From Candidatus Magasanikiibacteriota bacterium (GTDB lineage: Bacteria > Patescibacteriota > Patescibacteriia > Magasanikbacterales > UBA922): 58,611 bases of DNA. The stretch spans positions 1 through 58,611 of the forward strand of contig JBDROX010000028.1 of assembly GCA_043809645.1 (NCBI GenBank), read 5' to 3'. This document shows, one piece after another, positions 11,283 through 48,135 of this stretch; the first letter of the stretch is position 1; every line of letters begins with the position of its first letter. The translations under genes and the position numbers were made by a program. Under the pieces are notes generated by a model that worked only from the letters and a program-made list of their open reading frames with translations, was not told the DNA's origin and ran no database searches.

Positions 11283-11307
11283 AAACCGTCAACTTGGCGG
11301 TTTTTTT
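11283..11307 (+). terminator. Intrinsic terminator after the SPFH gene
   Basis: AAACCG-loop-CGGTTT followed by a T run. Confidence 0.65.
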
Positions 11308-11318
11308 GTATTCTAACC

Positions 11319-11347
11319 TTGACAAAGATTTCAAAAATATGTATGGT
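11319..11347 (+). promoter_or_regulatory. Sigma70-type promoter (TTGACA-17 nt-TATGGT)
   Basis: The -35 is at 11319-11324 and the -10 at 11342-11347, with exact 17-nt spacing. Confidence 0.5.
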
Positions 11348-11353
11348 AGATTT

Positions 11354-11534
11354 GTTCTTCGCGTACTGGGACACACCACACAGATCGACGCAAGTCGACA
11401 AGTGGCGGTTTCATACGTTATTCCTCCTGATTTGGAGACCTCAGCTCTCCACCGCCTCGATAATTCAAGATCTCAGTAGGGTGCCCTCGGACCCTCTTCA
11501 ATAGATAAACCCATTTACAAAAGGTGTTTTTTTT
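11354..11534 (+). ncRNA. Candidate structured RNA or attenuator-type leader upstream of mnmA (class unknown)
   Basis: About 180 nt between the promoter and a terminator-like hairpin plus T run (11507-11534). It holds several GC-rich stems: CGAC-GCAA-GTCG, GGCGGT...ACCGCC, GGAGA...TCTCC, AGGGT...ACCCT. The composition is GC-richer than the flanks and no convincing ORF is present. Confidence 0.3.
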
Positions 11535-11587
11535 GTTTAATAATCTCATATTGCAATTTACATATTTTCTGCTAGGATAAGGAATAT

Positions 11588-12675
11588 ATGACTGAAGAAG
11601 ACAAAAAAATTTTTGTATGTATGTCAGGTGGTGTTGACTCTTCTGTTGCTGCGGCTCTTTTGGTACACGATGGATATGATGTTACTGGGGCGTTCATGGT
11701 GAACTATGATAATGGTGAATCATGTTGGAGAAACGACTATAGGGATGCACTTCGGGTTGCTGCGAAACTTGGTATTCCTCTTCTTAAGTTAGATTTTACA
11801 AAAGACTATAAAGAACAGGTGCTGGATCACATGTTCGCTGAATATAAAAAGGGAAGAACGCCAAATCCGGATGTACTCTGTAATAAGTTAATAAAGTTTG
11901 GTGCCTGGATAGAGAAGGCGAGAGAGCTTGGTTTTGATGCCATTGCAACAGGGCACTACGCAAGCATTAAAATTTTAAAACATAAAAACATAAAAACATA
12001 TCATCTTATTCAGGCGAAGGATGGAAACAAAGATCAGACATATTTTTTGCATCAGTTAAATCAGGAGCAGCTTGCTCATACTTTATTTCCGCTTGGAGAC
12101 TATACGAAAGATGAAGTGCGGTCACTTGCCCGTGAGTTTGAGCTTCCAACAGCAGAGAAAGAGGAGAGTATGGGGATCTGTTTCGTGGGCGAAGTTCCAA
12201 TGAAGGAATTTCTTCAAGAAAGGATTGAGAAAAAACAAGGAAATATTGTGACCTCTAGTGGAGACGTGGTTGGAAAGCATGATGGACTTGCATTTTATAC
12301 TATTGGACAGCGTCACTTGGGAATTCAAAATTCAAAATTCAAAAAGCAGATGGCAAGCCGCTCTACGTGGTCGGTAAGAATAGTCAGAAGAATGAACTCA
12401 TTGTTGGGTTTGAAGATGGCTCAATGCTTTGGGCCAAGGAAATAGTAGTGGAAAACCCTCATTGGATCAGTGGACAGGCTCCTCAGTATCCTTTACAATG
12501 TAAGGTAAGACTACGTCATAGGCAAAAGCTGCAAGCAGCTGAAATTCGAAATTCGAAATTCGAAATTGGGGAAATTCAGGTTGTCTTTGAATCACCTCAG
12601 AGAGCCGTTACTCCAGGACAGTTTGCAGTGTTTTACAGAGAAAAAGAGTGTCTCGGAGGGGGAGTTATTCATTAA
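11588..12675 (+). CDS. mnmA: tRNA 2-thiouridine(34) synthase MnmA, split into two frames at 12340-12346
   Basis: N-terminal part has the PP-loop CMSGGVDSSV, NPDVLCN, ATGHYA and KDQTYFL. The downstream -1 frame reads ADGKPLYVVGKN...RAVTPGQFAVFYREKECLGGGVI, which is the conserved C-terminus. Frames 11588-12445 and 12346-12675 must be joined. Confidence 0.85.
12320..12347 (+). repeat. 7-nt tandem array GGAATTC AAAATTC AAAATTC AAAAAGC (in mnmA, at the frame break)
   Basis: Read directly; it encodes GIQNSKFKK. Confidence 0.9.
12541..12577 (+). repeat. 7-nt tandem array GAAATTC x3, GAAATTG, GG GAAATTC (in the mnmA C-terminal part)
   Basis: Read directly; it encodes EIRNSKFEIGEI. Confidence 0.9.
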
Positions 12676-12686
12676 CCCAAGATGCT

Positions 12687-14198
12687 ATGACAAATTTTTT
12701 CACACATGGCGTCATCAAAAGAAGTTGGCGGCTGGCATATATTGCCTTTGGACTGGTATCAGCAGTCCTCTATGATGTTTTTTTCTGGGACCTCCAGCGC
12801 GGACTTGGGTTTCTTGTCTTTGTTATTTTGTTTACTCTCGGTTTTGTTACTCTCTCTGCAGCAACGAAACAGATTCGTGAGCAAAAAGCATTTTTTCTCC
12901 TGGTACCTATCTCCATCATGAGTTTTGACGTAATGCTCTATAATAATGATCTGGTAACGCGAGGTATCCCTTGGTTTGTTCTTATCCTTATGATTCTTTT
13001 TTGCATTCTCCTTACCTTGCAGAATCCAAATTCATATGAGTTTTCTTTTTCCCAGATTCCAATTCTTAGAAATATAGAGGCAACGTTCCTGAAGTGGGCA
13101 ACAATGTGGAATGATCTCTTCAGATGGAAGACAGATGGAGGAAAAACAACTATCCGAAAGGTTGTTATTGGAATTATAATTTCCGTTCCACTCCTTATTA
13201 TTTTTACTGGGCTTTTCGCTGGTGCAGATGTAGTCTTTGCAGATTTTATTGCAGATATATTTAATTTCAATTTAGAAGAGTCTACTATTTGGAGAGTTTT
13301 CAGAACTGTCGTCCTTACTTTATTTATCTCCAGTGTGTTCTATGTACTTATTAGTAAGAATAATATTCTCGGACACAAGAAGAATGACGTGAGAAAGCTA
13401 GACGGGACTGTGGTTGGAACTATTTTTGCGCTTCTCAACGTACTTTTCCTTATTTTCGTCATTATTCAATTCACATATCTGTTCGGTGGCGCAGAATATG
13501 TTTTTGAAAGAAATCTGACCTTTGCAGAATATGCACGAAGTGGATTCTTCCAACTCGCATGGGTTATTGGACTCTCTGCATTTATGCTTGTGTTCTTCTA
13601 CAGATCAGCGTCGCACCACGGTAGTCATGCCTTTCTAAAGTTTCTCAAAGTGTTCTTCATTGCTCAGGTTATTGTGATTGCTATTTCGGCTCTCTTTCGC
13701 ATGAATCTGTATCAGGATGAGTTTGGGTATACAGTAAAGAGACTCTATGTAGAATGGTTTATATATTTCGCAGTGTTCATTCTTGCTCTCTCTGTGGTAA
13801 GTATTGTTATCAAGTGGAAGTTTCGAAATTTTCTCTACACAAGCATGATGCTTGGACTTCTTGCTTTGACAATCGTTTCTACAATAAATGTAGATAGAGT
13901 GATTGTAAAAGAGAATGTGGATCGGTATCTTAATGAGAACAAAGAGCTCGATGAGCATTATCTTCTCCATGATCTCTCAATTGATGTTCTCCCAGAATTT
14001 GTAAGGATTCAAGAAAGAGGATTTACACTTTCAAAATCAAAAGAAAATAGTAGCCATACATTCAGTATTTCTGTAAGAGACCTTAGTAATAAGACTTCAA
14101 CTAAAACAAAAATATATCAAGAGAGAGATTCGTGGAGAGAATTTAATGTTGGGGCAGAGAAGGGGCATGATATTATAAACAATTTAAGCACTTTATGA
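12687..14198 (+). CDS. Large polytopic membrane protein (DUF4153/DUF4173-like), function unknown
   Basis: About 500 aa with more than 10 TM segments. I chose the ATG at 12687, just after the mnmA stop. Confidence 0.55.
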   Translation: MTNFFTHGVIKRSWRLAYIAFGLVSAVLYDVFFWDLQRGLGFLVFVILFTLGFVTLSAATKQIREQKAFFLLVPISIMSFDVMLYNNDLVTRGIPWFVLILMILFCILLTLQNPNSYEFSFSQIPILRNIEATFLKWATMWNDLFRWKTDGGKTTIRKVVIGIIISVPLLIIFTGLFAGADVVFADFIADIFNFNLEESTIWRVFRTVVLTLFISSVFYVLISKNNILGHKKNDVRKLDGTVVGTIFALLNVLFLIFVIIQFTYLFGGAEYVFERNLTFAEYARSGFFQLAWVIGLSAFMLVFFYRSASHHGSHAFLKFLKVFFIAQVIVIAISALFRMNLYQDEFGYTVKRLYVEWFIYFAVFILALSVVSIVIKWKFRNFLYTSMMLGLLALTIVSTINVDRVIVKENVDRYLNENKELDEHYLLHDLSIDVLPEFVRIQERGFTLSKSKENSSHTFSISVRDLSNKTSTKTKIYQERDSWREFNVGAEKGHDIINNLSTL

Positions 14199-23380: not shown

Positions 23381-24098
23381 TATGCGACCTCTCATCAGTG
23401 TCATTATTCCGGTCTATAATCAGGTAGACAAGTTTAAGCTTGCTTTGCTATCGATCGAGAATCAGACCTATAAGAATATTGAGATTATTGTAATAGACGA
23501 CGGCAGTGAAGAAGAAATTCAAAATTCAAAATTCAAAATTAGTAAAGATATTCCACTTCATCTTTATAGACAAGAAAATAAAGGAGCCCCAGCTGCGAGG
23601 AACAAGGGATTTGAATTATCAAAAGGGGAATACGTCATATTTTGGGATGCAGATATTATTGCATATCCAGAAATGCTGGAGAAGATGTATCTAGCTCTAC
23701 AGCAAGAAAGCCAGGTGAGCTATGCATATTCAGATTTTTATTTTGGAAAGAAGAAGATGAAAGCAGGGGGGTTTGATGGGGAGAGATTGAAAAAAAATAA
23801 TTATATTACAACAGCAAGTCTTATTCATCGTGAGGATGTTGTTCCGTTTGATGAGAATCTAAAACGTTTTCAGGATTGGGATCTGTGGCTCACAATGCTC
23901 GAGCAGGGGAAGAAGGGTGTCCATGTCCCAGAGTTTCTTTTTACAATTATTCCTGGTGGAACCATGAGTTCCTGGCTTCCATCATTCGCATATAAAAAAC
24001 CCTGGAGATGGATTCCAGGGATTGAGAAGAAAGTGGAAAAATATGAGGAGGCAAAGGGAGTAGTCCAGAAAAAACATCATTTAAAAACATCTGCTTAG
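23373..24098 (+). CDS. GT2 glycosyltransferase
   Basis: ISVIIPVYNQ...VIDDGSEE...NKGAPAARNKG...WDADI (DxD). The start overlaps the GT4 stop. Confidence 0.85.
   Translation: MNNMRPLISVIIPVYNQVDKFKLALLSIENQTYKNIEIIVIDDGSEEEIQNSKFKISKDIPLHLYRQENKGAPAARNKGFELSKGEYVIFWDADIIAYPEMLEKMYLALQQESQVSYAYSDFYFGKKKMKAGGFDGERLKKNNYITTASLIHREDVVPFDENLKRFQDWDLWLTMLEQGKKGVHVPEFLFTIIPGGTMSSWLPSFAYKKPWRWIPGIEKKVEKYEEAKGVVQKKHHLKTSA
23514..23541 (+). repeat. 7-nt tandem array GAAATTC AAAATTC AAAATTC AAAATTA (in GT2 gene)
   Basis: Read directly; it encodes EIQNSKFKI. Confidence 0.9.
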
Positions 24099-33601: not shown

Positions 33602-34273
33602 ATGAACACTGGAGTACTCTACATTGTTGCAACACCAATTGGAAATCTCAAAGATATTACTTTTCGGGCAGTTGAGACTTTGAAAAAAGTTGATTTAGTT
33701 TTGTGTGAAGACACACGAGTTACAAAGAAACTTTTGTCGCATTATCAGATTGACACACGGACAATGAGCTACCATCAGCATTCGGATGACAAGAAAGTGA
33801 AAGAAATTATTGAACTGCTTCAAGACGGAAAAGATCTTGCGCTGGTGACTGATGCCGGTACGCCGGGAATTTCGGATCCAGGTGGCCACCTTGTGGCTGA
33901 AATTCGAAATTCGAAATTCGAAATTCGGGCAGTTCCTATTCCAGGTCCTTCCGCGGTTACTGCGGCTTTGTCGATTTCTGGATTTCCAACTGACAAGTTT
34001 TTCTTTATGGGCTTTCCTCCACATAAGAACAAAAGAAAGAAATTTTTTACTGAAGTTGCTGATGCCAAGTATACGGTTGCGTTTTATGAATCAAGTCATA
34101 GAATACAGAAAGCACTGAAAGAGCTCGAAGAAGTGCTAAAGAAAGATAGAGAGATGTGTGTTTGCCGGGAATTAACAAAGAAATTCGAGAGTATCTATTG
34201 TGGAACGGTTGAAGAGATTCTAGAAATGGAAATCCCGGAGAAAGGGGAGTTTGTTGTTTTAGTAAGAAAATAG
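33602..34273 (+). CDS. rsmI: 16S rRNA (cytidine1402-2'-O)-methyltransferase
   Basis: LYIVATPIGNLKDITFRA...LCEDTR...DAGTPGISDPG...PGPSAVTAAL. Confidence 0.93.
   Translation: MNTGVLYIVATPIGNLKDITFRAVETLKKVDLVLCEDTRVTKKLLSHYQIDTRTMSYHQHSDDKKVKEIIELLQDGKDLALVTDAGTPGISDPGGHLVAEIRNSKFEIRAVPIPGPSAVTAALSISGFPTDKFFFMGFPPHKNKRKKFFTEVADAKYTVAFYESSHRIQKALKELEEVLKKDREMCVCRELTKKFESIYCGTVEEILEMEIPEKGEFVVLVRK
33899..33929 (+). repeat. 7-nt tandem array GAAATTC x4 followed by GGG (in rsmI)
   Basis: Read directly; it encodes EIRNSKFEIR. Confidence 0.95.
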
Positions 34274-36577: not shown

Positions 36578-37531
36578 ATGGATTATAAAAAACTAAAAGA
36601 ATTTGGCAAAGTGAAGCTCAATGAGCCACTTGCCAAGTACACAACATTCAAGATCGGTGGACCAGCTGATTGCTTTGTGATAGTGGACACATCAGAAAAT
36701 TTTGCAGAAGTTCTGAAGTATTTAGATGGTGTTGGGCAAGATTACATCATCCTAGCCGGAGGAAGCAATGTGCTTGTCGGTGATGCTGGATACAAAGGTG
36801 TGGTGATTCATCCGAGAAACTCGAAACTTGAAATTCGAAATTCGGGAATTCTTGTTGAAGCAGGATGTCCTACAGCAAGAGCTGCACAGGAATCTATCAA
36901 AGCAGGTTTTGTCGATTTTGCATGGGGAGTTGGGATTCCCGGAACTATTGGTGGTGCGATCCGTGGGAATGCAGGGGCTATGGGAAGTGAGATGAAAGAT
37001 CATGTAGAGAAGCTCGAAGTATACCGAGATGGAGAAGTCATCGAGCTTTCAAATGAAGAATGTGAATTTGGATATCGAGAAAGCATTTTCAAACATGGTG
37101 GGGGAATTATTCTACGTGCTTGGCTCAAGCTCGAAAAAGGTGATGCAGGGAAGGCTATGAAAGAGGCCATGGAGCACTTATCATATCGTGCGTGTAATCA
37201 GCCACAGGGTTTTGGAAGCGCTGGATGCACTTTCAAGAATCTTCCTATCTCAAAAGAGGAACAAGAAATTATTAAATCTAAAACAGATGACCCAAAAGTT
37301 CTTGAAACTATGGAAAAGTATAATAAAGTCCCGATTGGTCGACTTATTGAGCTATGTGGTTTGAGAGGTTTTCGGATTGGCAACGCAGGCGTGAGTGAAA
37401 AACATGGTAATTTTATTGTAAATCTTGGAGAAGCGACAGCAGAGGATGTACACACTGTAATTGAAAAAGTAAAAGAAAAAGTGTATACTACTTTTGGTAT
37501 TTCTATTCAAGAAGAAATCTATTTTATGTAA
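36578..37531 (+). CDS. murB: UDP-N-acetylmuramate dehydrogenase
   Basis: TFKIGGPADCF...GGGSNVLV...GIPGTIGGAIRGNAGA...AGCTFKN. Confidence 0.93.
   Translation: MDYKKLKEFGKVKLNEPLAKYTTFKIGGPADCFVIVDTSENFAEVLKYLDGVGQDYIILAGGSNVLVGDAGYKGVVIHPRNSKLEIRNSGILVEAGCPTARAAQESIKAGFVDFAWGVGIPGTIGGAIRGNAGAMGSEMKDHVEKLEVYRDGEVIELSNEECEFGYRESIFKHGGGIILRAWLKLEKGDAGKAMKEAMEHLSYRACNQPQGFGSAGCTFKNLPISKEEQEIIKSKTDDPKVLETMEKYNKVPIGRLIELCGLRGFRIGNAGVSEKHGNFIVNLGEATAEDVHTVIEKVKEKVYTTFGISIQEEIYFM
36816..36851 (+). repeat. 7-nt tandem array GAAACTC GAAACTT GAAATTC GAAATTC GGGAATTC (in murB)
   Basis: Read directly; it encodes RNSKLEIRNSGI. Confidence 0.9.
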
Positions 37532-47776: not shown

Positions 47777-48135
47777 TTAGTCCTTACTTTTTCTTGCTAA
47801 TTGAGATTTTATAAGTTTGTTCAATCTGATCTCAATTTCCTTTGCTAGGGTTTTTAGCATAGTAAATTCTTCTTTGCTTATTTGTTTTCTTTCAAACATG
47901 AGACTATGCCAGTGTCTTGATTCCAGAAGCGAAGCTCGTGCATTGTAATAGAATTTGTTCTTAATCCTTCGGCGATATTTACCACAACTGAATCTACACT
48001 CCGAATCATCTGATCTCCAATAATTTTTTGTTCTTTCCAATTAAGTCTTGAATAAATTTCCCAAGATTTTTTCGAATATTCTCTTGAATTCTTGTATACA
48101 TCTAACTTCGGCAGTTCAATATAGCTGGAGTTCAT
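47777..48135 (-). pseudogene. Four-helix-bundle protein (23S rRNA intervening-sequence / Avd superfamily) with a 1-nt frameshift
   Basis: The N-terminal frame (from 48135) reads ...IGDQMIRSVDSVVVNIAEG. The C-terminal frame (to 47777) reads KNKFYYNARASLLESRHW...LNKLIKS. Together they give the family pattern Q..RA..SI..NIAEG...F...A.GS..E. The break is near 47955-47965. GGGGA lies 4 nt before the ATG. Confidence 0.7.

What the first reader, a model, noticed from the sequence alone, without database searches (positions are those of the whole stretch)
12320..12370. mnmA is split exactly at a heptamer array that ends in a dnaX-like slippery motif (C AAA AAG)
The zero frame reads ...GGA ATT CAA AAT TCA AAA TTC AAA AAG CAG ATG... 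and dies at 12445. The conserved MnmA C-terminus (ADGKPLYVVGKN...VTPGQ...CLGGG) is in the -1 frame starting at GCA 12346. Three events would each restore a full-length protein. The first is a -1 ribosomal slip on AAA AAG (12341-12346), giving ...SKFKK-ADGKPLY. The second is one extra A in the A5 run. The third is one extra 7-nt repeat unit (+7 is equivalent to +1), giving ...IQNSKFKIQKADGK, which matches the IQNSKFKI peptide of the GT2 array. MnmA thiolates U34 of tRNA-Lys, the tRNA that decodes the slippery codons, so a frameshift-based feedback loop is conceivable. A homopolymer sequencing error is the dull alternative.
Basis: partly seen in the sequence, partly recalled or inferred. Interest (0 to 1): 0.6.

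Follow-up and report, generated by a model that had tools for sequence, protein, structure and literature searches.

The report
mnmA broken by a heptamer repeat miscount
A conserved tRNA-modification gene in a tiny groundwater bacterium is thrown out of frame inside a 7-base tandem repeat that looks one unit short, one of dozens of such repeats in this genome, and nothing supports programmed ribosomal frameshifting.

Summary
mnmA reads in frame 0 from 11588, enters a perfect AATTCAA x3.3 array (12322-12344), and stops at 12445. The conserved C-terminal domain follows in the -1 frame (12346-12675).

The programmed-frameshift reading is not supported:
- C AAA AAG allows only the A-site tRNA to re-pair.
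- No stimulatory structure or Rfam element was found.
- The genome has a cognate tRNA-Lys(CUU).
- All 29 relatives' loci examined encode MnmA in one frame.

The array is one of 42 perfect period-7 arrays in this 0.95 Mb genome (0.1 expected from shuffles). Most sit in frame inside intact housekeeping genes. The only glutamyl-tRNA synthetase gene, on another contig, is split in the same -1 direction inside another array (GTCCGTC x3.4) that has no slippery site and no homopolymer. A scan with 481 conserved ORFs found no break at a homopolymer.

The orthologous mnmA loop in two related genera carries a decayed period-7 array. The window is exactly 7 nt shorter than one of them.

Best reading: a DNA-level change in repeat-unit count, by slipped-strand loss or an assembly miscount, that is very recent or absent from the functional allele. 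No reads bridging the array could be obtained, so real variant and miscount cannot be told apart.

The parts
11588..12343 (+). mnmA N-terminal part in frame 0: HUP catalytic domain and the start of the PRC-barrel domain, up to the array
   Evidence: ORF 11588..12445. PF03054 1.3e-73 and PF20259 positions 1-45 of 66. 57-73% identity to relatives.
12322..12344 (+). Perfect heptanucleotide array AATTCAA x3.3 (23 nt), the site of the frame break
   Evidence: TRF period 7, 3.3 copies, 100% matches. Exact-array scan. It lies in the variable loop between the conserved TIGQR and PLYVV motifs.
12340..12346 (+). C AAA AAG motif, formed by the 3' end of the array plus native sequence. It is not a full X XXY YYZ slippery heptamer.
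   Evidence: Sequence. No structure downstream. No Rfam hit. tRNA-Lys CUU is present.
12347..12445 (+). Out-of-frame tail of the frame-0 ORF (33 codons), ending at TAG 12443-12445
   Evidence: This stretch has no Pfam match of its own; the PF20259 match stops at residue 248.
12346..12675 (+). mnmA C-terminal part in the -1 frame: the rest of the PRC barrel and the C-terminal beta-barrel. It is open for 109 codons and keeps the conserved motifs.
   Evidence: Translation. PF20258 3e-24. 40-57% identity to the C-termini of 29 relatives.
12541..12567 (+). Second heptamer array inside mnmA (GAAATTC x3.9), in frame with the C-terminal part. It encodes EIRNSKFEI in a variable loop.
11977..12000 (+). 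Octamer array AAAACATA x3.0 inside mnmA, in frame (24 nt). It encodes the KILKHKNIKT loop, which is shared at peptide level with several relatives.

Best explanation
The break is a DNA-level change in the number of units of a heptanucleotide simple-sequence repeat, not a decoding signal.

mnmA carries a 7-nt tandem array in a surface loop that tolerates variable length. Seven is not a multiple of three, so only some unit counts keep the frame: 1.3 or 4.3 units here. The assembled sequence has 3.3 units. That throws the C-terminal domain into the -1 frame.

The most likely history is loss of one unit from a four-unit in-frame array. This could be slipped-strand mispairing in the organism or a one-unit miscount when the metagenome was assembled.

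The downstream domain is still open and conserved. The genome's only GluRS gene shows the same defect. The out-of-frame count is therefore either very recent or not the allele most cells depend on.

Shown here: the anatomy, the genome-wide class of arrays, the second broken gene, the 7-nt length difference from an ortholog, and the lack of frameshift signals. Inferred: the direction of the change (loss of one unit), and that a functional in-frame allele exists.
For: 1. The genome holds 42 perfect period-7 arrays of at least 19 nt, against 0.1 in triplet-block shuffles and 0-8 for the other periods from 4 to 12. They lie in frame inside intact GT2, RsmI-like, MurB, LeuRS, IleRS-like, PolA and RecG genes.
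2. Only two arrays separate a long upstream ORF from a long downstream ORF in another frame: mnmA and gltX.
3. gltX is the only PF00749 gene in the genome. Its catalytic domain (PF00749) and anticodon-binding domain (PF19269) are in different frames across GTCCGTC x3.4. That array has no X XXY YYZ motif and no homopolymer. The relatives' copies were single-frame in 29 of 29 loci.
4. A tblastn scan with ORFs of relative G012 (811 ORFs, of which 481 hit G000) gave 5 frame-switch candidates: mnmA, gltX, two decayed small PF05635-type genes, and one weak pair (second piece 22 bits, taken as spurious). None was at a homopolymer. The reverse scan of 792 kb of G012 gave only one weak candidate.
5. 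The orthologous mnmA loop still has period-7 self-similarity in G024 (0.61) and G012 (0.56), against 0.14-0.28 at periods 6, 8 and 9. The span from TAT to the GTx codon is 84 nt in G024, 81 nt in G012 and 77 nt in the window, so the window is exactly one unit shorter than G024.
6. Several homologs have 21-22-residue loops with a 7-residue period here, for example P0003, P0016 and P0022.
7. The -1-frame part is open for 109 codons and keeps its Pfam domain, so the break is young or not real.
8. No MutS or MutL domain was found in the 94.7%-complete genome. That fits unstable repeats.
9. Intragenic heptanucleotide repeats that are ON only at certain counts are a known mechanism: neuO (PMC13001214, passages read).
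Against: - No read or independent contig bridges the array. Three public runs hold only low-depth fragments of the organism, and two flank-pattern scans of JGI metagenome contigs found nothing. The unit count was therefore never observed to vary.
- Arrays of 3-4 units are short for high-rate slippage.
- An out-of-frame majority allele of an essential GluRS gene is hard to reconcile with a living cell. That pushes towards an assembly artefact or towards some form of recoding.
- A simple de Bruijn collapse is not systematic here. 15 arrays of at least 28 nt were assembled at full length, one of them (33899-33927) on the same contig.
- A single extra A would also restore the frame, and a 20-residue loop exists in one homolog (P0004).
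Confidence: 0.72

Rival explanations
1. Fixed loss of function: the 3.3-unit allele is the true and dominant genotype, and mnmA is a young pseudogene in this lineage, or is held in a phase-OFF state.
For: The break is present in the only available assembly. The genome also carries decayed genes, the PF05635 pseudogenes. Reduced genomes of this group lose genes. mnmA was not found in 15 of 240 genomes of the order, though many of those are incomplete.
Against: mnmA is present in 225 of 240 genomes of the order and single-frame in 29 of 29 loci read. The downstream 109 codons carry no stop and keep PF20258. The same lesion in the sole GluRS gene cannot be a tolerated loss, so a common non-lethal explanation is preferred. 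Housekeeping genes are not typical contingency loci.
Confidence: 0.12
2. Homopolymer sequencing or consensus error: the A5 run (12341-12345) is really A6.
For: One extra A restores the frame. The resulting loop length of 20 residues occurs in at least one homolog (P0004). In relative G010 a split mnmA has an A8 run beside its heptamer array.
Against: No other frame break at a homopolymer appeared among 481 conserved ORFs. The parallel gltX break has no homopolymer. The window differs from the G024 ortholog by exactly 7 nt, not 1. A5 is short for systematic error.
Confidence: 0.07
3. Programmed -1 ribosomal frameshifting on C AAA AAG makes full-length MnmA, possibly tuned by the modification state of tRNA-Lys.
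For: A_AAG is the most shift-prone tetramer in E. coli (PMC4066793, passages read). The -1 frame is open and conserved from exactly this point. MnmA modifies tRNA-Lys(UUU) (established knowledge).
Against: - The P-site codon AAA would re-pair with CAA, so this is not an X XXY YYZ heptamer.
- Tetramers without a stimulator are at background (0.147% against 0.112%) and reach 5.6% only with a strong pseudoknot (PMC4066793, passages read).
- There is no downstream structure (z -0.86; z +1.54), no SD-like GGAGG in the 20 nt upstream, and no Rfam family.
- tRNA-Lys(CUU) is encoded. It should reduce slippage on AAG, although the same paper notes it does not preclude it.
- The split is not conserved in relatives.
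- It cannot explain gltX.
Confidence: 0.04
4. Repeat-enabled recoding: the ribosome (peptidyl-tRNA re-pairing on the identical codon 7 nt upstream) or RNA polymerase re-registers by one repeat unit. Out-of-frame unit counts in mnmA and gltX would then still yield some full-length protein.
For: Both broken genes need the same -1 (equivalent to -7 nt) correction. In a period-7 array every codon recurs 7 nt away and all three frames encode the same peptide. Many essential genes carry four-unit arrays, and their stepwise origin would pass through out-of-frame counts.
Against: There is no direct evidence. Known backward hops are rare events (recalled, not read here). Only 2 of the 42 arrays are out of frame, and only G000 and G010 among the genomes followed up showed a within-contig frame split of mnmA. 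An assembly miscount explains the same data.
Confidence: 0.05

Closest known systems
neuO heptanucleotide VNTR of E. coli K1 prophage CUS-3 (translational phase variation by slipped-strand mispairing)
   Same: A perfect 7-nt tandem repeat inside a coding sequence. Full-length translation happens only at certain unit counts. The repeat is translated into a heptad-like peptide (PMC13001214, passages read).
   Different: neuO has 3-53 units and sits at the 5' end of an accessory surface-modification gene. Its unit-count variation has been measured. Here there are only 3.3 units, in an internal loop of a housekeeping tRNA-modification gene, and no variation has been observed.
dnaX-type -1 programmed ribosomal frameshift (A AAA AAG with an upstream SD and a downstream stem-loop)
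   Same: AAA AAG codons at the point where the -1 frame becomes the conserved one.
   Different: The first base is C, so the P-site tRNA cannot re-pair. No SD-like element, stem-loop or conservation was found. A cognate tRNA-Lys(CUU) is present. In dnaX both products are functional. Here the frame-0 product is a truncated enzyme.
Genome-wide over-representation of heptameric simple-sequence repeats in bacteria (Mrazek et al. 2007, as summarised in PMC4679880 and PMC4692102; GGGAATC in Xanthomonas, GGGGAYT in Nostoc, TAACTGA in Beggiatoaceae)
   Same: Period 7 is strongly favoured over neighbouring periods. Arrays of about four units are preferred. Each genome has its own preferred units. Polymerase slippage is the proposed cause (passages read).
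   Different: Those arrays are mostly intergenic and under-represented in coding regions. Here most lie in frame inside housekeeping genes, and two break genes.
Rickettsia palindromic elements (in-frame repeat insertions in housekeeping genes). Recalled, not read here.
   Same: Repetitive DNA tolerated inside surface loops of essential proteins.
   Different: RPEs are mobile palindromes of 100-150 bp with conserved sequence. The arrays here are 19-36 nt, have no shared flanks, and in mnmA and gltX the unit overlaps sequence coding residues that match relatives' native loops.

Membership tests
MnmA / tRNA 2-thiouridine(34) synthase | HUP (PP-loop) catalytic domain, PRC-barrel domain and C-terminal beta-barrel, in that order | tested here: met
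   PF03054 and PF20259 in frame 0, PF20258 in the -1 frame. 7922 homologs with E<=1e-40, named MnmA where a name is given.
dnaX-type -1 PRF cassette | X XXY YYZ heptamer that lets both the P-site and A-site tRNAs re-pair in the -1 frame | tested here: not met
   The sequence is C AAA AAG. The P-site codon AAA would face CAA.
dnaX-type -1 PRF cassette | Stimulatory stem-loop or pseudoknot a few nt downstream | tested here: not met
   12347-12440: z -0.86, and 41 of 200 shuffles fold as well. 12300-12400: z +1.54. No Rfam family with E<=1 in 11300-12900.
dnaX-type -1 PRF cassette | Internal Shine-Dalgarno-like element about 10 nt upstream | tested here: not met
   The 20 nt upstream are the A/T-rich array. 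The nearest G-rich stretch is GGG at 12319-12321. Judged by eye only.
dnaX-type -1 PRF cassette | Frameshift site and two-frame layout conserved in relatives | tested here: not met
   29 of 29 relatives' loci are in a single frame. Of 15 suspicious genomes followed up in the order, none had a frame split. Only G010 is split, at a different loop.
SSR contingency locus (slipped-strand phase variation) | Perfect tandem repeat, with a unit not divisible by 3, inside the coding sequence, so that the frame depends on unit count | tested here: met
   AATTCAA x3.3 at 100%. By arithmetic, 1.3 or 4.3 units are in frame and 3.3 is out.
SSR contingency locus (slipped-strand phase variation) | Unit count seen to vary among reads, clones or strains | not testable with these tools
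   No contig bridges the array in 3 runs. 0 hits in two metagenome scans. The closest homolog is only 74% identical.
SSR contingency locus (slipped-strand phase variation) | Long array (usually more than 6 units) in an accessory, surface or restriction-modification gene (recalled criterion) | tested here: not met
   3.3 units in a conserved housekeeping gene.
Genome-wide heptameric SSR class | Excess of period-7 arrays over neighbouring periods and over shuffled sequence | tested here: met
   42 arrays at period 7, against 0-8 at the other periods from 4 to 12. Shuffles give 0.1.

The most novel reading that the evidence does not exclude
Period-7 arrays in this lineage may be 'frame-blind' inserts, since all three frames give the same peptide. 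The cell may tolerate them even at out-of-frame counts because translation or transcription can re-register by one 7-nt unit. Under that reading, the 3.3-unit arrays in mnmA and in the sole GluRS gene are real, and both genes still yield full-length protein. It would also explain how four-unit heptamer arrays can arise step by step inside essential genes such as LeuRS, IleRS, PolA, RecG and MurB.
Probability: 0.05. Interest if true: 0.85.

Novelty: new member of a known kind. Interest (0 to 1): 0.33.

Why it matters
For the finding itself, it removes an attractive but unsupported claim: a tRNA-Lys-modifying enzyme autoregulated by a tRNA-Lys slippery site. It replaces that claim with an ordinary cause that can be checked with reads.

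More broadly, this Magasanikbacteria-like genome (named from its homologs) carries dozens of perfect heptanucleotide arrays inside essential genes. Related genera carry arrays of their own preferred unit at orthologous loops. Two single-copy housekeeping genes appear broken only at such arrays.

If these are assembly miscounts, annotation pipelines will call false pseudogenes in such genomes. If they are real, the repeats are a strong mutational load, or a source of loop evolution, in very small genomes in which no MutS or MutL domain was found. The question of how essential genes survive out-of-frame intermediates would then become testable.

Tried and rejected
Reads. One search for sequencing runs found three runs with small word shares of 0.13, 0.07 and 0.06. 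Laying their Logan contigs showed exact 151-193-nt fragments of the organism at depth about 2. None bridged 12322-12344. The only record touching the array (X2 record 12, 477 nt) matched the repeat units alone and belongs to something else. This gives no verdict on unit count.

Independent contigs. Flank patterns with a variable gap, for mnmA and for gltX, found nothing in JGI metagenome contigs. The protein search found nothing closer than 74% identity. No sister strain is available.

Assembly collapse. A k=21 de Bruijn collapse would turn 30/31-nt arrays into the observed 23/24 nt. But 15 arrays of at least 28 nt are intact in the same assembly. Collapse is possible but not systematic, and this stays undecided.

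Mobile-element origin. Arrays with the same unit share no flanking sequence, so this was rejected as a simple explanation.

Re-initiation of the C-terminal piece. The first start codon in the -1 frame is GTG 12367, with no SD-like sequence upstream. For gltX I saw no ATG, GTG or TTG near the junction in the downstream frame (by eye). A split two-polypeptide enzyme is unlikely.

Order-wide survey for split mnmA. The match list was cut (106 matches not shown). I followed up 15 of the genomes with low best E-values or short frames:
- 9 had same-frame loop insertions.
- 5 had contig breaks inside mnmA.
- 1 (G174) had a run of N at this very loop.
About 14 other genomes with two matches were not examined.

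Literature. Searches of 'heptanucleotide repeat' with Patescibacteria and of candidate phyla radiation with tandem repeats and frameshift found no description of intragenic heptamer arrays in this group. Searching mnmA with 'programmed frameshift' listed two papers on frameshift suppression by tRNA-modification mutants. I saw the listing only, and neither reports a frameshifted mnmA. Supplements of papers were not opened.

Full report
**What is there.** The window is contig C28 of a 953,884-bp, 44-contig, 41% GC genome. Its MnmA homologs are named Candidatus Magasanikbacteria or Patescibacteria where a name is given.

mnmA starts at 11588 and reads in one frame through a perfect AATTCAA x3.3 array (12322-12344). 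It then runs 33 out-of-frame codons to TAG at 12443-12445. From GCA 12346 the -1 frame encodes the rest of the protein down to 12675. Frame 0 carries PF03054 and the first two thirds of PF20259. The -1 piece carries PF20258. It is the only mnmA in the genome.

**Relatives.**
- 40 of 41 genomes searched, G000 included, have mnmA.
- In all 29 relatives' loci fetched, the N- and C-terminal parts lie in one open frame of 345-458 aa.
- Across the order, 225 of 240 genomes have a match.
- The closest protein in the large protein collection is only 74% identical, so no sister strain exists to compare.

The break falls in the loop between the conserved TIGQR and PLYVV motifs. The stretch from the residue after TIGQR to the end of the PLYVV motif is 14-15 residues in the shortest relatives and up to about 60 in the longest, and often 20-23.

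**The programmed-frameshift idea.**
- C AAA AAG is not an X XXY YYZ heptamer. The P-site tRNA on AAA would face CAA, which leaves only the A_AAG tetramer.
- In E. coli such tetramers alone are at background (0.147% against 0.112%) and reach 5.6% only with a strong pseudoknot (PMC4066793, passages read).
- The 94 nt downstream fold no better than shuffles (z -0.86). The 101 nt around the site fold worse than shuffles (z +1.54). No Rfam family matches 11300-12900 at E<=1.
- The genome encodes both tRNA-Lys(UUU) and tRNA-Lys(CUU), so AAG has a cognate reader, unlike in E. coli. The same paper notes this reduces frameshifting but does not preclude it.
- The two-frame layout is not conserved.

I put this reading at about 4%.

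**The wider context changes the question.**
- The genome has 32 perfect period-7 arrays of at least 3 copies. Periods 5, 6, 8 and 9 have 2-4 each.
- It has 42 period-7 arrays of at least 19 nt, against 0.1 in triplet-block shuffles.
- A preferred unit family has an AAATTC core. Other arrays have unrelated units.
- Most arrays lie in frame inside long intact genes. In the window these are GT2 (23515-23540), an RsmI-like methylase (33899-33927) and MurB (36816-36844). Elsewhere they are LeuRS, an IleRS-like synthetase with three arrays, PolA and RecG.
- mnmA itself holds a second, in-frame heptamer array (12541-12567) and an in-frame octamer array (11977-12000).
- Because 7 and 3 are coprime, such arrays encode the same cyclic peptide in every frame. 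Only the total length matters for what follows.

**A second broken gene.** Scanning every array for a long upstream ORF that switches to a long downstream ORF found only two genes: mnmA and gltX.

gltX (G000:C36:59157-60610) is the only PF00749 gene in the genome. Its catalytic domain and its anticodon-binding domain (PF19269) are in different frames across a perfect GTCCGTC x3.4 array. The shift is in the same -1 direction. That array has no slippery motif and no homopolymer. In the 29 relatives' loci aligned, GluRS is single-frame, and the array sits in a variable linker. The residues flanking the array match the relatives' native sequence. The array therefore appears to have grown from a local 7-mer.

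**Is the assembly generally error-prone?** I fetched 792 kb of relative G012 and ran its 811 ORFs of at least 120 aa against G000. Of these, 481 had hits and 5 gave frame-switch candidates:
- mnmA and gltX;
- two small PF05635-type genes with stops or an out-of-frame deletion;
- one weak pair, whose second piece scores only 22 bits and which I take as spurious.

None is at a homopolymer. The reverse scan of G012 gave one weak candidate. Both housekeeping breaks lie in arrays that together cover about 0.1% of the genome. The arrays are the cause. A homopolymer error is not favoured.

**Which repair is right.** The orthologous loop DNA of G024 and G012 still shows a decayed period-7 pattern. Self-match is 0.61 and 0.56 at period 7, against 0.14-0.28 at periods 6, 8 and 9. 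Their units resemble the window's.

Over the same span (TAT of YTIGQR to the GTx after PLYV) G024 has 84 nt, G012 has 81 nt and the window has 77 nt. The window is exactly one unit shorter than G024. One more unit would give the same 15 codons between the conserved flanks. Homologs P0003, P0016 and P0022 have 22-residue loops with a 7-residue period. One extra A remains formally possible, since a 20-residue loop exists in P0004.

**Real or artefact?** This could not be settled. The runs found hold the organism only at depth about 2, and no contig bridges the array. Two metagenome scans with flank patterns were empty.

Arguments for 'not the functional allele':
- The downstream parts of both genes are open and conserved.
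- A cell cannot live on a GluRS without its anticodon-binding domain (inference from established knowledge).

Hints that the arrays trouble assemblers:
- 5 of 15 genomes followed up have contig breaks inside mnmA.
- One (G174) has a run of N at this very loop.

Argument against a systematic collapse: 15 arrays of at least 28 nt are assembled intact, one of them on this contig.

No MutS or MutL domain was found, so real instability is plausible. Relative G010 has mnmA split in another loop, at a TATCATC x3.4 array beside an A8 run.

**Comparison with what is known.** The mechanism class is that of intragenic heptanucleotide repeats such as neuO, where full-length translation needs a suitable unit count (PMC13001214, passages read). 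Genome-wide excess of heptameric repeats, a preference for about four units, and a polymerase-slippage explanation have been described. Those arrays are mostly intergenic (PMC4692102 and PMC4679880, passages read). My searches found no description of dense in-frame heptamer arrays inside housekeeping genes of this group.

**Verdict.** The slippery-site and feedback interpretation is not supported. The best explanation is a one-unit count change in a heptanucleotide repeat (confidence 0.72). The choice between a real variant and an assembly miscount is left to the reads. Interest is modest for the finding as posed. The genome-wide arrays, and the second broken essential gene, are the more notable result.

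Noticed in passing
G000:C36:60227-60250 (locus L073 2571-2594): The genome's only glutamyl-tRNA synthetase gene is split (-1 direction) inside a perfect GTCCGTC x3.4 array, between the catalytic domain (PF00749) and the anticodon-binding domain (PF19269). All 29 relatives' loci aligned are single-frame.
   Followed up: yes
whole genome G000; in the window 12322, 12541, 23515, 33899, 36816: There are 42 perfect period-7 tandem arrays of at least 19 nt, against 0.1 expected and 0-8 for the other periods from 4 to 12. Many share an AAATTC core. Most are in frame inside intact housekeeping genes: GT2, RsmI-like, MurB, LeuRS, IleRS-like (three arrays), PolA and RecG.
   Followed up: partly
G000:C34:19454-19482 (LeuRS), window 33899-33927 (RsmI-like), G000:C33:14811-14842, G000:C39:29063-29094: In several genes the array takes the place of native sequence with no length change relative to the G012 ortholog. 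It is therefore not a simple insertion, and how this arises without lethal out-of-frame intermediates is unexplained.
   Followed up: partly
G012 loci L033-L072 (e.g. G012:C1:347879-347900), compared with window 23515-23540 and G000:C3:15450, C33:15307: Relative G012 has fewer arrays (14 of at least 19 nt in 792 kb). At loops orthologous to G000 arrays it carries repeats encoding ERGMRNE- or RGMGNE-like peptides, of which only the mnmA one (G012:C1:347879-347900, CATTCCT as listed) was read as DNA. The preferred units seem genome-specific at shared sites.
   Followed up: partly
window 11977-12000: An octamer array AAAACATA x3.0 in mnmA is perfect at the DNA level. Its peptide (KILKHKNIKT here, KTLKHKNIKT in relatives) also occurs at this loop in several proteins that are 67-74% identical (P0003, P0008, P0056, L007).
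   Followed up: no
L103 (G010:C16:19500-21300), about 740-780: mnmA of relative G010 is split between two frames in a different loop, at a TATCATC x3.4 array (94% matches) directly after an A8 run. Either could be the cause.
   Followed up: partly
L125 (G174:C1:33878-37537): G174 has a run of N exactly at the loop where the window has its array, and the frame differs on the two sides. This may be an assembly gap or a withheld stretch.
   Followed up: no
window 47780-48135 (- strand); G000:C18:1600-1960: Two small PF05635 (23S rRNA intervening-sequence protein) type genes are decayed. The window copy has its two halves in different frames after an internal deletion. The C18 copy has several stops (family assigned by similarity to a G012 ORF only).
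   Followed up: partly
whole genome G000: No MutS_V (PF00488) or MutL (PF01119) domain was found in a genome estimated 94.7% complete. The control genomes rang in 11 of 14.
   Followed up: partly
window 12512-12595 in run X1: Summed contig depth of 684 over the GAAATTC array in a groundwater run, coming from contigs that match only the repeat. Other organisms in such samples appear to carry the same heptamer arrays.
   Followed up: no
G000:C31:13998-14026; G000:C18:10076-10095; G000:C2:23600-23664; G000:C7:7408-7434: Some heptamer arrays are intergenic: upstream of rpoB, between the L14 and L24 genes, paired arrays before an ORF, and one spanning a stop/start junction. Gene names come from recognisable N-terminal sequences only.
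   Followed up: no
relatives' MnmA around residue 128 of the window protein (L011, L028, L030, P0027): Several relatives have long in-frame inserts in this loop. Their peptides (for example NWKLET... followed by ...NSFQFPISNF) suggest a heptamer array followed by its reverse complement, that is, a hairpin-like inverted pair of arrays inside the gene.
   Followed up: no
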